Numbered from the stretch's first letter, positions 2,923 to 18,128 are shown. The stretch: DNA of 64,000 nucleotides from Dictyostelium discoideum (GCA_000004695.1 CM000154.2:416001-480000); one strand, 5' to 3'. Program-made: numbers and translations. Notes: a model not told the origin generated them from the sequence alone.

Positions 2923-3093
2923 TATTATTATTATTATTGTTATTATTATTATAGACGTATTCATATTTTAGGATCATATTCCAACATTAGAGTTGCAAAA
3001 GATGCAATTTGTGACTTAATTATTGGTTCACCACCAGGTAAAGTTTACGCAAAATTAAGAACAGTTTCAAGTAGAATTGCAGAACGTTTCTAA
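1964..3093 (+). CDS. pno1: RNA-binding protein PNO1/Dim2 (KH domain, partner of NOB1). Exons 1964..2134, 2271..2501, 2616..2794, 2955..3093
   Basis: Spliced product ...[89 protein letters not shown]...[75 protein letters not shown] is near-collinear with human PNO1. Three introns with GTAAAT/GTATGG/GTATGT donors and TAG acceptors. Confidence 0.85.
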
Positions 3094-3275
3094 ATTGCAA
3101 GAAAAAAAAATAAAAAAAAAAAGAACAAAAAAAAATTAAAAAATAAAAAAAAGAAAAAAAATTTTAAAAAAAAAAAAAAGATTTCTGTATGTTTTATTAT
3201 TATTATTATTTAATTACTATTTCTAAGGTTGAATTGTTATTACTTTTTGGATTTGGTTCTGAATGATAATGTAAT

Positions 3276-14866: not shown

Positions 14867-16032
14867 CCCACACACCAATTCAAATAATTTTCCGTTAAAA
14901 GATATATTTAATAACCCTTCAATCACACTTCTTTTTTTTTTTAGCATTTTAAATTTAAAAAAAAAAAATCCTTCATTCATGAATAAAATGTAAATATGAT
15001 CGATTTCCAAAACATCTTCAAAAAATAAAAATAAAAATTATAAAAAAGAATAAAAATTATTAATTAAATAAAAATTAAAAAGAAGAAAAAAAAAAAGAAA
15101 TTAAAATAAAATAAAATTAAAAAAAATTAAAAAAAAAAAACAAATAAATAAAAATTTTTTATCATTTATTTTTATTTCTTTGAAATTTATTTTTATTTAA
15201 TAATTAATAAAAAAAAAAATTAAAAAAAAAATAAATAAATAAATAAAAATAAAAAAAAAAAAAAAAAAAAGTGTTTATAGTATTTCTTTTCTTTCTTTTT
15301 TTTTATTAAATTATGAATTGATTACAAATAAATTTTTATTAAATAATTTAAAGCATCATATTAATTGCTCTTTGTGGTTTTTGTCCAAAGTTTTTTTTTT
15401 TTAACACATCAAAAATAAAAAAAAATATTCATTGAATAGCCAATAAAAGGATATAAAATGTTAATTTTCAAAATATTTGGTTGATTATATAAACAAAAAA
15501 AAAAATGTATTCATACTGGTACTTTTTTCTATTTTTTTCACCTTTTTGAGCATGGCAATTTACAAAATCTAATATTAGAACGGTAATTGTTTTTTTAAAA
15601 AAAAAAAAAATAAAAAAAAAAGTTTTATTTGAAATGGGGTTATTTTTGTGATCAAAAAGGTATTCTCAAAATTTTGATTTTATTTTATTTTATTTTATTA
15701 TTTATTTTTTTTAAATTTTTTTTTTTTTTTTTTAAAATTTTATTATTTAGAATTAAAATGTTGTTTTTTCCAGAGCAATATTTTTTTTATTTTTTAATTT
15801 GAATTATCAAAATTTAATAAAGAATTTTAATTTTAAATAGTGCAGTTATTGTTATTTTTTTTTGTTTTAAAAAAATAAAATTAATAAATCTAATAATAAA
15901 ATTGTATAAATTAAATGGTTGAAGGAGGTTATCTTTAGAAGAACTGATTCTGAAGTACAATTCTAGTGTTTCTTACAATTAAAGAAGAGATAACCTCAGG
16001 ATCATTAAAATTCTAGTTTATAAATCCTTTTA

Positions 16033-16050
16033 GGACAGGAGTCGAACCTG
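16033..16050 (-). promoter_or_regulatory. external B box (ex-B) about 30 bp downstream of the tRNA gene
   Basis: Reverse complement CAGGTTCGACTCCTGTCC is a second isolated T-arm/B-box consensus with no accompanying tRNA body. This is characteristic of Dictyostelium tRNA genes. Confidence 0.7.
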
Positions 16051-16077
16051 TAGTCTTTGGTGGCTCAAATAAATTAT

Positions 16078-16159
16078 TGTAAGCTAAGGGATTCGAACCC
16101 TTGTATCAATGATATTGCAGCCTTAATGCAACCCCTTAGACCAGCTCGGGCAAGCTTAC
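16078..16159 (-). tRNA. tRNA-Leu (anticodon AAG), class II with long variable arm
   Basis: Reverse complement GTAAGCTTGCCCGAGCTGGTCTAAGGGGTTGCATTAAGGCTGCAATATCATTGATACAAGGGTTCGAATCCCTTAGCTTACA. It has a 7-bp acceptor stem, a D arm, an anticodon stem TTGCA/TGCAA with loop TTAAGGC, a 13-nt variable stem-loop and T-loop GGTTCGAATCC. Confidence 0.85.
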
Positions 16160-16185
16160 TTTTTGAAAATTTTGTAATCTCTAAC

Positions 16186-16358
16186 GATATTAATTTATCA
16201 ATTACGGAAAAAAAACAAACAACAACAACAATCTCTTTTTTTGATTATTTCATTTTTCATATAAAAAAGACTTAAAAAACAAATAAATAAATAAATAAAC
16301 TATTTTAAAAAGCCATCTTTTTACTTTATTGTAATTTATTATTTGAAATAGAAAAAAT

Positions 16359-16409
<51 letters not shown>

Positions 16410-16701
16410 GGAACCCAAGTTAATCAGAAAATTTCCAGATTTTTAACTTTTTAAAGAAAAATAAAAAAAATAGAAAGAAAATAAAATGAAAATCACAAAC
16501 AACACCACAAATATTAAGCAACACAAATGCCTACAAAAAATAAGCGAAATTGTGGATAAAACTCAATTAAAAAAAAAACAATTCAAATACGTCATAAACA
16601 TCAATCACGAACCAGACGATAAAATAAAAAAAGATTTAGAAAAAAGTTTGGACAAAAAAGATGTTTTAATCAAAAGTAATAATACAATTCAAAATTCGAA
16701 A

Positions 16702-16743
<42 letters not shown>

Positions 16744-17135
16744 TAAACCAACCCCTCTTTTAGAGACCCTGTAAAAAAAAATAAAATAAAATAAAATGAG
16801 ATCTAGCATCTCAAGGAGAAGCAAATAATAATTGCGTTATCCAATTCAAAAAAAAAATAATTTATCAATTACTATGACCCTGTAAAAAAAAAATTATTAT
16901 TATTTATCCCTGTAAAAAAAAAAAAAATAAAATGAGATCTAGCATCTCAAGGAGAAGCAAATAATAATTGCGTTATCCAATTCAAAAAAAAAAAATTTAT
17001 CAATTACTAAAAAAACAACAACAACAATCTCTTTTTTTGATTATTTCATTTTTCATAAAAAAGACTTAAAAAACAAATAAATAAACTATTTTAAAAAGCC
17101 ATCTTTTTACTTATTGTAATCTATTATTTGTTTCG
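16186..17135. repeat. composite repeat upstream of the tRNA: about 140-bp direct repeats (16196..16345 and 16999..17135, about 90% identical) flanking a tandem duplicated 68-bp unit (16793..16860 and 16930..16995); the motif AATTTATCAATTAC recurs at each junction
   Basis: Direct sequence comparison: ...CAACAACAACAATCTCTTTTTTTGATTATTTCATTTTTCAT(A)AAAAAGACTTAAAAAACAAATAAATAAACTATTTTAAAAAGCCATCTTTTTACTT... occurs twice. AAATGAGATCTAGCATCTCAAGGAGAAGCAAATAATAATTGCGTTATCCAATTC occurs twice. Confidence 0.7.
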
Positions 17136-17922
17136 TTTTGAAAATTTTGCCTCGCACAATCTGTCATCTTAAATTTTAATCTAATGCAATTTATATTTAT
17201 ATTTTAATTTATCTTTTATATTTACATTTCAATTTTAATCTTTTTATTTAAATACACTTTTTTTTAATAAAAATTTTTTATTTGGAAATGTCAATTTAAA
17301 TAAACAAAAAAAAATTAATTTTCCAATTTTTAATTTCCAAAAATACAAATAACAAAATGTTAAATATAGTACAACTTTCAATCAATTAAAGGTTTATCCA
17401 TTTATATTTATTAATAAAAAAAAAAAAAAATTTTGTAATTTTAAAATAGTTTCATTTTCATGGACTTTTTTTTTTTTTTTATGTTCACAGACTATTAATT
17501 AAAATAAAAAAGTAAATTTATTCTTTTTTATTTTTTTTAAATTTATTTAATTTTTATTTTTATTTTATTTTTATTTGAATTGTTGAGTAACCAGGGTTAC
17601 CCCTTATTTGAAAAAAAAAAAATAAAATAAAAAAAATGAATTTTTTTATTTATTTAATTTATTTTTTTTCTTATTAAATTATCATTTTTCTCCCAATTTA
17701 GTAAAAAAAAAAAAAATTAAATAAAAAAAAAAAAATTAAATAAAAAAAAAAAAAATTAAATAAAAAAAAAAAAAAAAAAAATAAATAAAAAAAAAATCAA
17801 ATTAAAATTTTTTTATCTCCATTAATTTTATTCATTATTAATATTTTTCTTATCTTTTATTAAAAAACAAATAGAAAAAAAAAAAAAAAAAAAAAAAGTT
17901 TTTAAAGAAAAAAAATAAAAAA

Positions 17923-18128
17923 ATGAAATTATTATTTTCAATTTTTATTATTTTTATTACTTTCAATGTAATAAAATCATTTGATATTGATTCAATTGAT
18001 CCATTACATTGGGAGTCTGATGAAGGATTTGATCATCATAAATGTTGGGGAAAAAATAAAAATTTTGGTTATTATACAGGTAAGTAAATATAAAAAAATA
18101 TATATATTTTATTTTTAAAATTTTACTA

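What the first reader, a model, noticed from the sequence alone, without database searches (positions are those of the whole stretch)
16033..17135. tRNA-Leu(AAG) with external B box and an upstream composite repeat array
The tRNA has the classic dictyostelid extra B box about 30 bp downstream (CAGGTTCGACTCCTGTCC). Upstream, starting 27 bp (repeat R2, 40 bp) from the tRNA 5' end, a motif AATTTATCAATTAC heads a 140-bp repeat (R2) that reappears 800 bp further on. In between, a 68-bp unit (R1: GAGATCTAGCATCTCAAGGAGAAGCAAATAATAATTGCGTTATCCAATTC...) is tandemly duplicated, each copy ending in the same AATTTATCAATTAC. tRNA genes are the landing pads for TRE and DGLT-A retroelements in this organism. 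The R1/R2 architecture may be a remnant, solo or novel tRNA-associated element, or a local duplication generated by repeated integration and excision.
Basis: partly seen in the sequence, partly recalled or inferred. Interest (0 to 1): 0.5.

Follow-up and report, generated by a model that had tools for sequence, protein, structure and literature searches.

The report
Stacked TRE5-A retrotransposon remnants at tRNA-Leu
The "composite repeat array" upstream of this Dictyostelium tRNA-Leu gene is three pieces of the well-known tRNA-targeting retrotransposon TRE5-A, inserted one after another at the same spot about 46 bp upstream of the gene, so it is an ordinary example of a known phenomenon.

Summary
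The window is D. discoideum AX4 chromosome 5, and the tRNA is LeuAAG-7.

- **R2** is the first ~140 bp of the 199-bp TRE5-A A-module, the 5' promoter module.
- **R1** is the 3' part of the TRE5-A C-module with its oligo(A) tail.
- **AATTTATCAATTAC** belongs to neither repeat. It is the host target site, re-duplicated each time an element landed 46 nt upstream of the tRNA.

The layout, all on the + strand with 5' ends facing the tRNA, is:
- target copy
- E2, an ORF-less A-B-C element (16206-16857)
- target copy
- E1, a 5'-truncated C-module fragment (16875-16993)
- target copy
- E0, an older, diverged A-module relic (from 17010)

The modules are 93-100% identical to the UTRs of a full-length ORF1/ORF2(RT) element elsewhere in the genome. 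They also reproduce the residues published for TRE5-A: ORF1 Ile-10, and C-module T15, C26, A35 and C38.

The same stacking, with repeated locus-specific duplications, occurs at other tRNA genes. At the orthologous tRNA-Leu, a divergent D. discoideum isolate (L006) has an empty site and another isolate (L008) carries an independent stack.

Nothing here is novel and no excision is involved. Interest is low.

The parts
16038..16048 (-). External B box (GGTTCGACTCC), 29 nt downstream of the tRNA 3' end.
   Evidence: Read directly from the sequence. The ex-B concept is described in PMC5911963.
16078..16159 (-). tRNA-Leu(AAG), inferred to be LeuAAG-7 of AX4 chromosome 5. This is the TRE5-A target.
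   Evidence: ARAGORN and Rfam RF00005, 50.8 bits. Coordinates match the S2 table of PMC5391098.
16160..16190 (.). Native upstream flank of the tRNA gene.
   Evidence: Conserved next to the orthologous tRNA in L006, L008 and L010.
16191..16205 (.). Target-site copy 1 (TAATTTATCAATTAC). It ends 46 nt upstream of the tRNA 5' end.
   Evidence: L006 holds related native sequence (AACCATTGTAAC) at about the same distance upstream of the orthologous tRNA (read by eye).
16206..16405 (+). E2 A-module. It has 137 bp identical to the 199-bp consensus unit, then two small deletions, and ends in A46 (16360-16405).
   Evidence: 137/137 identical to the L004 and L005 A units.
16406..16741 (+). E2 B-module (16406-16702) plus A39. 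It contains the TRE5-A ORF1 start at 16486 (MKITNNTTNI...). Only 72 codons remain before the poly(A) tract.
   Evidence: 100% identical to L005 5135-5431 and 99.7% to the 3' B-module of the full-length element in L002. Ile-10 matches PMC3159450.
16742..16857 (+). E2 C-module (16742-16847) plus an A10 tail.
   Evidence: Aligned to C-modules in L002, L003, L004 and L005. T15, C26, A35 and C38 match PMC3159450. The fold gives three stems, z = -3.1.
16858..16874 (.). Target-site copy 2. It is the right duplication of E2 (15 bp, 16858-16872) and the left duplication of E1 (16 bp, 16859-16874).
16875..16993 (+). E1, a 5'-truncated TRE5-A copy. It holds only the last ~80 nt of the C-module, preceded by an irregular 34-nt 5' junction (a second partial CCCTGTA(n) plus TTATTATTATTTAT), with an A10-12 tail.
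   Evidence: 98.8% identical to the L002 C-module; alignment.
16994..17009 (.). Target-site copy 3 (AATTTATCAATTACTA).
17010..17187 (+). E0, an older, diverged solitary A-module. Its 3' limit is uncertain.
   Evidence: 150/169 identical (88.8%) to consensus A positions 7-174, covering window 17009-17166.
17204..17225 (.). Possible degenerate fourth target copy (TTAATTTATC-TTTTAT-ATTTAC). This is tentative.
   Evidence: A 10-nt exact match to 16190-16199. The stack must end before about 17249, where the alignment to the empty-site isolate L006 resumes.

Best explanation
The region 16191-~17225 is a tandem stack of three TRE5-A (formerly DRE) non-LTR retrotransposon copies. They were integrated successively by target-primed reverse transcription at the canonical site about 46-47 bp upstream of tRNA-Leu(AAG). 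All are in the canonical orientation, with the 5' end facing the tRNA.

Each new copy landed between the tRNA and the previous copy and re-duplicated the same 14-16 bp of host DNA. That is why AATTTATCAATTAC appears three times.

- **E0 (oldest):** survives only as a diverged A-module.
- **E1:** a severely 5'-truncated copy consisting of the C-module end plus an oligo(A) tail.
- **E2 (youngest):** an ORF-less A-B-C element.

R2 is the A-module 5' part and R1 is the C-module 3' part.

**Shown here:** module identities, target duplications, distance, orientation, the absence of the stack from a divergent isolate, and an independent stack in another isolate.

**Inferred:**
- The order of the events.
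- Targeting through the ORF1 protein and TFIIIB, and the dependence on the C-module hairpin (both from the literature).
- The origin of E2. It arose either by recombination between the 5' and 3' B-modules of a longer copy, or by trans-mobilisation of an already ORF-less RNA.
For: **1. Homology to a bona fide element.** Window 16361-16857 aligns at 93.6% over 503 bp to L002 5876-6357. That stretch lies directly downstream of a 444-aa ORF1 and a 1047-aa ORF2 with Pfam RVT_1 (E = 2.5e-33).

**2. A-module.** 137/137 identical to the 199-bp unit that precedes B-ORF1 in L004 and L005.

**3. Match to the published description of TRE5-A** (PMC3159450):
- Published module sizes are A 200 bp, B 290 bp (holding the ORF1 start) and C 134-137 bp. 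Here they are 200 bp (including its A46 run), 297 bp and 106 bp.
- A 3' B-module occurs only in TRE5-A.
- ORF1 Ile-10 is present.
- C-module positions T15, C26, A35 and C38, counted from the 3' end, fall in stems I and III of the predicted fold.

**4. Integration site and orientation.** There are 46 nt between the tRNA and the element. The literature gives 47+/-3 bp, with the 5' end facing the tRNA and duplications of 10-16 bp.

**5. The 14-mer is locus-specific.** In every other copy the C-module ends at CCAATTC+A(n) and is followed by a different sequence that matches that locus's own tRNA flank:
- L003: TAATGAAACCTTT
- L004: TTCCTATGGAATAC
- L005: AGCTGTCATCGATGAC
- L008: ACCATTGTAACAAT, three times

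**6. The same layout recurs elsewhere.** The younger element sits between the tRNA and the older one in L005 and L008, and the same arrangement is seen in L004, where ARAGORN called no tRNA. It was also seen experimentally as TRE-TRE tandems.

**7. Orthologous loci.**
- Isolate L006 has an empty site: 49 bp stand in place of window 16175-17248.
- L011 shows no TRE5-A modules upstream, and its tRNA-to-gene spacer is of similar length (703 bp against 681 bp in L006).
- L008 has an independent stack with a different duplication.

**8. Experimental targeting.** LeuAAG-7 received tagged TRE5-A integrations, with 945 reads in the adapter library.
Against: - E0 has no recognisable poly(A) tail, B-module or C-module. 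Its right-hand target copy is at best degenerate, so its status as an independent older insertion is inferred from its position and its 88.8% identity.
- E1 has an irregular 5' end with a second partial CCCTGTA(n). Together with target copy 2, it could instead have arisen by local unequal crossing-over.
- E2's A-B junction differs from the usual A + partial A + poly(A) junction.
- E2's C-module is 106 bp rather than 134-137 bp. The difference may be a matter of where the B/C border and the A-run are counted, or it may be a real deletion.
- No genome-wide scan of AX4 was possible with these tools.
Confidence: 0.93

Rival explanations
1. One or two TRE5-A insertions were followed by a local tandem duplication. 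Unequal crossing-over or replication slippage between copies of the target 14-mer would have produced the second R1+14-mer unit (E1), rather than a third independent integration.
For: The R1 cores are 100% identical and the period is a clean 135-136 bp. E1 carries no diagnostic difference in the 68-bp core.
Against: - The two units differ in the (TAAAA)n and A-run lengths upstream of the core.
- E1 has its own 34-nt irregular 5' junction, typical of 5'-truncated non-LTR insertions (PMC5391098).
- E1's flanking duplication is 16 bp (…TTACTA), whereas E2's is 15 bp (T+14-mer). Different registers are what separate integration events would give.
- Stacks with triple duplications arise independently in L008.
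Confidence: 0.12
2. This is the reader's idea: a novel tRNA-associated composite element, or the solo remnant of one, with R1 and R2 as its own repeats and AATTTATCAATTAC as a shared terminal motif.
For: Judged from this locus alone, the repeats appear self-contained.
Against: - Every segment is 89-100% identical to modules of the RT-encoding TRE5-A.
- The 14-mer is absent from all other copies.
- L006, which lacks the stack, has related native sequence at the position of the 14-mer (read by eye).
Confidence: 0.01
3. R2 copies are the LTRs of a DGLT-A-type LTR retrotransposon or some other LTR element, flanking a short internal region.
For: There are two direct repeats of about 140 bp, about 800 bp apart, close upstream of a tRNA gene. 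DGLT-A is found 13-33 bp upstream of tRNA genes (PMC5633606).
Against: - R2 matches the TRE5-A A-module, which forms 199-bp tandem arrays in front of B-ORF1.
- The interior carries two poly(A) tracts and TRE5-A B- and C-modules.
- The duplications are 14-16 bp, not 4-6 bp.
- The distance is 46 nt, not 13-33.
- R2b continues past R2a's end as A-module.
Confidence: 0.01

Closest known systems
TRE5-A (DRE) non-LTR retrotransposon of Dictyostelium discoideum, in particular ORF-less A-B-C derivatives and TRE5-A/TRE5-A tandems
   Same: - Same A-, B- and C-modules by sequence.
- Same integration distance, orientation and oligo(A) tails.
- Target duplications within the published 10-16 bp range.
- Same stacking of a new copy between the tRNA and the older copy.
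   Different: - E2 lacks ORF1 and ORF2, unlike TRE5-A.1 (autonomous) and TRE5-A.2 (ORF1 only).
- From memory, an 'ABC' variant has been called TRE5-A.3. I could not verify this name: a search for it found nothing, and Glockner et al. 2001 (PMC311061) is not held.
- E2's A-B junction is an idiosyncratic deletion variant.
TRE5-C and TRE5-B
   Same: They have the same target region upstream of tRNA genes. TRE5-C also has a C-module.
   Different: According to PMC3159450, TRE5-B and TRE5-C lack a 3' B-module, TRE5-B lacks a C-module, and the TRE5-C C-module is only about 78% identical to that of TRE5-A. Here B is joined to C exactly as in the full-length L002 element, at 93-100% identity.
Solo-LTR or Ty3-type tRNA-proximal remnants in yeast, and DGLT-A in Dictyostelium
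   Same: These are also retroelement debris accumulating at RNA polymerase III genes.
   Different: They integrate by a different mechanism (integrase rather than target-primed reverse transcription). They have no poly(A) tails, make short duplications and sit at different distances.

Membership tests
TRE5-A | Sequence homology to the untranslated modules of an element encoding ORF1 and an RT-containing ORF2. | tested here: met
   B is 99.7% and C 92.8% identical to the 3' UTR of the L002 element (ORF1 444 aa; ORF2 1047 aa with RVT_1, E = 2.5e-33). A is 137/137 identical to the units preceding B-ORF1 in L004.
TRE5-A | Modular UTRs: A about 200 bp, B about 290 bp holding the ORF1 start, C about 134-137 bp, and a B-module adjacent to C (unique to TRE5-A). 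| tested here: met
   The modules here measure 200 bp (A, including its A46 run), 297 bp (B, ATG at 16486, Ile-10) and 106 bp (C, shorter than published). The B-poly(A)-C junction is the same as in L002 and L005.
TRE5-A | Integration about 47+/-3 bp upstream of a tRNA gene, with the 5' end facing the tRNA 5' end. | tested here: met
   There are 46 nt between tRNA position +1 and the first base of E2. The elements are on the + strand and the tRNA on the - strand.
TRE5-A | Target-site duplications of 10-16 bp and a 3' oligo(A) tail. | tested here: met
   E2 has a 15-bp and E1 a 16-bp duplication, with A10 and A10-12 tails. The published range is from PMC9012585. For E0 this is not met or is unclear.
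TRE5-A | A C-module 3'-terminal stem-loop structure with the published nucleotides: C38 and A35 in stem I, C26 and T15 in stem III. | tested here: met
   All four bases are at those positions counted from CCAATTC. The fold gives three stems that contain them, -11.3 kcal/mol, z = -3.1.
TRE5-A | Intact ORF1 and ORF2 (an autonomous TRE5-A.1). | tested here: not met
   Only 72 codons of ORF1 remain before the poly(A) tract, and there is no ORF2. The copies here are non-autonomous derivatives or fragments, not TRE5-A.1.
DGLT-A (LTR retrotransposon) | LTRs, a 4-6 bp duplication, and a position 13-33 bp upstream of the tRNA. | tested here: not met
   R2 is the TRE5-A A-module. The distance is 46 nt and the duplications are 14-16 bp.
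TRE5-B / TRE5-C | No 3' B-module. TRE5-B has no C-module, and the TRE5-C C-module is about 78% identical to that of TRE5-A. | tested here: not met
   A B-C junction is present, and the C-module is 93-99% identical to that of the B-duplicated full-length element. No TRE5-B or TRE5-C reference sequence was available for a direct comparison.

The most novel reading that the evidence does not exclude
The ORF-less A-B-C unit (E2) may not be an in-situ deletion product. It may instead belong to a self-standing, SINE-like TRE5-A lineage that is transcribed from its A-module and mobilised in trans. Three independently duplication-flanked A-B-C elements were seen in three genomes:
- the window
- L003, at a tRNA-Phe
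- L008, at the orthologous tRNA-Leu, with a different duplication

In addition, the rightward-facing A-module promoters now sit upstream of the neighbouring gene DDB_G0287581.
Probability: 0.3. Interest if true: 0.25.

Novelty: already known. Interest (0 to 1): 0.08.

Why it matters
It matters mainly for annotation.
- The region should be masked as TRE5-A.
- The 86-aa ORF at 16486-16746 is a truncated ORF1 start, not a gene. Similar ORFs elsewhere are currently annotated as hypothetical proteins.

The locus is a clean textbook case of repeated retrotransposon targeting of one tRNA gene. The target duplication is regenerated at each hit, and the site is polymorphic between isolates: empty in one, and independently filled in another. 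It opens no new question.

Tried and rejected
- **Unfiltered BLAST.** BLAST of the segments against the window was swamped by A/T-rich low-complexity hits and was uninformative. I replaced it with module probes and with exact or fuzzy motif searches.
- **A shared 14-mer as the duplication of the whole complex.** TTTTGAAAATTTTG occurs in the tRNA flank (~16163-16176) and after R2b (~17136-17149). I rejected it as a duplication. The right copy is part of the A-module consensus (TTTTGAGAATTTTG). The left copy is native flank, conserved in L006 and L008.
- **A very long (~150 bp) target duplication explaining R2a and R2b.** Rejected, because R2 is the A-module found at many loci.
- **A right-hand target copy for E0.** None was found at 2 mismatches or fewer. 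There is only a degenerate candidate at 17204-17225.
- **BLAST of the flanks** (15300-16035 and 17150-17925) against the TRE5-A loci found no further TE pieces.
- **Literature.** Nothing was found for 'TRE5-A.3', and Glockner et al. 2001 (PMC311061) is not held.
- **AX4 paralogue look-up.** The look-up of P0001 failed.
- **Rfam.** The D. firmibasis SINE-like head was not recognised as tRNA.

Full report
**Observation**

The tRNA-Leu(AAG) gene lies at 16078-16159 on the minus strand (ARAGORN; Rfam tRNA 50.8 bits). An external B box (GGTTCGACTCC) sits at 16038-16048, 29 nt past the tRNA 3' end.

The repeats upstream of the tRNA, at higher coordinates, are real.
- AATTTATCAATTAC occurs exactly three times in the window, at 16192, 16859 and 16994. 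Chance expectation is 0.01.
- R2a (from 16206) and R2b (from 17008) align over about 135-150 bp, differing by microsatellite-type indels.
- The R1 core is duplicated with a 135-136 bp period.

There are two long poly(A) tracts on the + strand (A46 at 16360-16405, A39 at 16703-16741). Shorter A-runs directly precede the second and third copies of the 14-mer. A 297-bp segment between the long tracts opens with an ATG in good context.

**Organism and locus**

The window has 21% G+C. The spliced product of the gene starting at 17923 is identical to AX4 DDB_G0287581.

The S2 table of PMC5391098 lists an 82-nt LeuAAG-7 on chromosome 5 at 432078-432159, with no other tRNA gene within the span of this window. 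That places the window at chr5:416001-480000. The coordinates are inferred. An independent long-read assembly (L001) has the same structure and differs only in poly(A) length.

**What the pieces are**

The ORF at 16486 (MKITNNTTNIKQHKCLQK...) found six short D. discoideum 'hypothetical proteins'. Their loci identify the segments.

- **L002** carries a full-length non-LTR element with a 444-aa ORF1 and a 1047-aa ORF2 (Pfam RVT_1, E = 2.5e-33). It is followed by sequence 99.7% identical to window 16406-16702 and 92.8% identical to 16742-16847. The first of these segments also precedes ORF1 and supplies its start codon.
- **L004** has eight tandem 199-bp units, 137/137 identical to R2a. A partial unit, poly(A), the same 297-bp segment and ORF1 follow them.

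This is the published architecture of TRE5-A: AB-ORF1/ORF2-BC. The A-module is a 200-bp promoter, the B-module is 290 bp and defines the ORF1 start, and the C-module is 134-137 bp. TRE5-B and TRE5-C have no 3' B-module (PMC3159450).

Two independent literature cross-checks fit.
- The ORF1 residue mutated as 'isoleucine-10' is I10 here.
- The C-module bases mutated in stem I (C38, A35) and stem III (C26, T15), counted from the 3' end, are exactly the bases found at those positions counted back from CCAATTC. They lie in stems of the predicted three-stem fold (-11.3 kcal/mol, z = -3.1).

So R2 is the 5' ~140 bp of the A-module. R1 is the 3' part of the C-module plus its oligo(A) tail. The unmentioned middle segment is the B-module.

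**The 14-mer is host DNA**

In all seven aligned C-modules the element ends at CCAATTC+A(n), and what follows differs at each locus. At four of them, what follows repeats the flank of that locus's own tRNA gene (or, in L004, tRNA-like sequence):
- TAATGAAACCTTT in L003
- TTCCTATGGAATAC in L004
- AGCTGTCATCGATGAC in L005
- ACCATTGTAACAAT in L008

In the window the first copy ends 46 nt upstream of the tRNA. The corresponding distance is 46 nt in L003 and 47 nt in L005. Published values are 47+/-3 bp, with duplications of 10-16 bp and the element's 5' end facing the tRNA.

By exact matching, E2 (16206-16857) is flanked by a 15-bp duplication (TAATTTATCAATTAC). E1 (16875-16993) is flanked by a 16-bp duplication (AATTTATCAATTACTA).

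**Architecture**

From the tRNA outward, the layout is:
1. tRNA, on the minus strand.
2. 31 nt of native flank.
3. Target copy 1.
4. E2: A-module (16206-16405, ending in A46), B-module (16406-16702) plus A39, C-module (16742-16847) plus A10.
5. Target copy 2.
6. E1: a 34-nt irregular 5' junction, the last ~80 nt of the C-module, and an A10-12 tail.
7. Target copy 3.
8. E0: a diverged A-module, 88.8% identical to consensus positions 7-174, covering 17009-17166.

New TRE5-A copies are known to land between the tRNA and a resident copy, forming tandems rather than inserting into each other (PMC5391098 and PMC9012585). L005 and L008 show the same layout, with the local duplication repeated two or three times, and L004 shows the same arrangement beside a tRNA-like sequence that ARAGORN did not call.

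The order E0, then E1, then E2 is inferred from position and from divergence. E2's A- and B-modules are 100% identical to other genomic copies, whereas E0 is at 88.8%.

**Comparative test**

I retrieved the orthologous locus from other assemblies through the neighbouring gene.

- **L006**, a divergent D. discoideum isolate, has the same tRNA-Leu with an empty upstream site. Only 49 bp stand in place of window 16175-17248. Read by eye, they include native sequence related to the 14-mer (AACCATTGTAAC).
- **L011** shows no TRE5-A modules upstream. Its tRNA-to-gene spacer is 703 bp, against 681 bp in L006 and 1764 bp in AX4.
- **L008** carries an independent stack at about the same site (duplication ACCATTGTAACAAT, three copies, ending 35 nt upstream of the tRNA). 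It consists of a TRE5-A A-B-C element plus a younger element with a different tail.
- **D. citrinum (L009)** has a 5'-truncated TRE5-like copy at this tRNA. **D. firmibasis (L007)** has three short poly(A)-tailed units.

The AX4 array is therefore an insertion complex at a repeatedly hit tRNA gene. LeuAAG-7 was also hit by tagged TRE5-A in the laboratory, with 945 reads.

**Unresolved details**

- E0 has no poly(A) tail and no B- or C-module, and only a degenerate candidate for its right-hand target copy (17204-17225). Its 3' part was probably lost, but I could not show how.
- E1's 5' junction contains a second partial CCCTGTA(n). A local duplication of the C end plus target copy cannot be excluded. 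I rate it at about 0.12, mainly because the E1 and E2 duplications differ in register.
- E2 may have arisen by recombination between the two B-modules of a longer copy, or it may have inserted as an ORF-less RNA. The published 99.5% loss of activity without ORF1 favours recombination. Three independent A-B-C copies in three genomes keep trans-mobilisation open.

**Comparison and verdict**

Every defining feature of TRE5-A that could be tested is met, except intact ORFs. These copies are non-autonomous derivatives and fragments. DGLT-A, TRE5-B, TRE5-C and a novel element are excluded (see the membership table).

This is a known element behaving as described since 1989-2017. Novelty is 'already known', and interest is about 0.08.

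Noticed in passing
L007:3143-3875 (D. firmibasis, orthologous tRNA-Leu at 3019-3100): Three stacked short units start 42 nt upstream of the tRNA. Two are about 190 bp and one is a longer ~330-bp variant, and each has a poly(A) tail. Each is separated from the next by a repeat of the local sequence (A)ATATAAG(G).

The head (GGGGGGCTTAGCATAGTGGTTTCACAC...GGTTCAAGTCTTGG) has A-box-like and B-box-like motifs. The tail (ATTCGAACACAT...GAGGTTATT+A(n)) resembles the 3' end of the younger element in L008.

This looks like a SINE-like non-autonomous retroelement using a TRE5-type partner. A literature search found no paper describing one in Dictyostelium. Rfam and ARAGORN do not call the head a tRNA.
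   Followed up: partly
L004:2509-4208 (GCA_054883475.1 CM142511.1, 11-25 kb from the end of the same chromosome record as L001): A TRE5-A copy carries eight perfect tandem 199-bp A-modules plus a partial one in front of B-ORF1. The promoter module can therefore amplify as a tandem array.
   Followed up: no
L002:1-6357: The end of an ORF2 runs directly into a B-module and then ORF1-ORF2-B-C. This is a head-to-tail TRE5-A fusion through the duplicated B-module. It shows that B-B recombination, the route proposed for A-B-C elements, does occur.
   Followed up: no
window 16486-16746; also P0001 (DDB_G0282561) and P0005 (DDB_G0280833): Truncated TRE5-A ORF1 starts that run into poly(A), giving poly-Lys, are annotated as 'hypothetical proteins' in AX4 and in newer assemblies. 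They are transposon fragments, not genes.
   Followed up: partly
L008:1-1511 and L008:1957-2593: In isolate GCA_054859385.1 the same tRNA-Leu has two further elements. A Skipper-like integrase/chromodomain gene lies downstream of it. Upstream there is a ~640-bp element with a non-C-module tail (CGAACACACTTGTATCAAGTGAGGTTATT+A16, possibly TRE5-B-like).
   Followed up: no
window 15927-15998: An imperfect inverted repeat (GGAGGTTATCTTT ... AAGAGATAACCTC) lies about 40-110 bp beyond the ex-B box, in the zone where TRE3 and Skipper-2 elements usually land. It gave no match to the TRE5-A loci. L006 has about 400 bp of extra sequence between the corresponding points.
   Followed up: no
window 16360-16405 and 16703-16741, compared with L001: The internal poly(A) tracts differ by 8-9 nt between the window and the long-read assembly of the same locus. 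This is either length instability or an assembly error at homopolymers.
   Followed up: no
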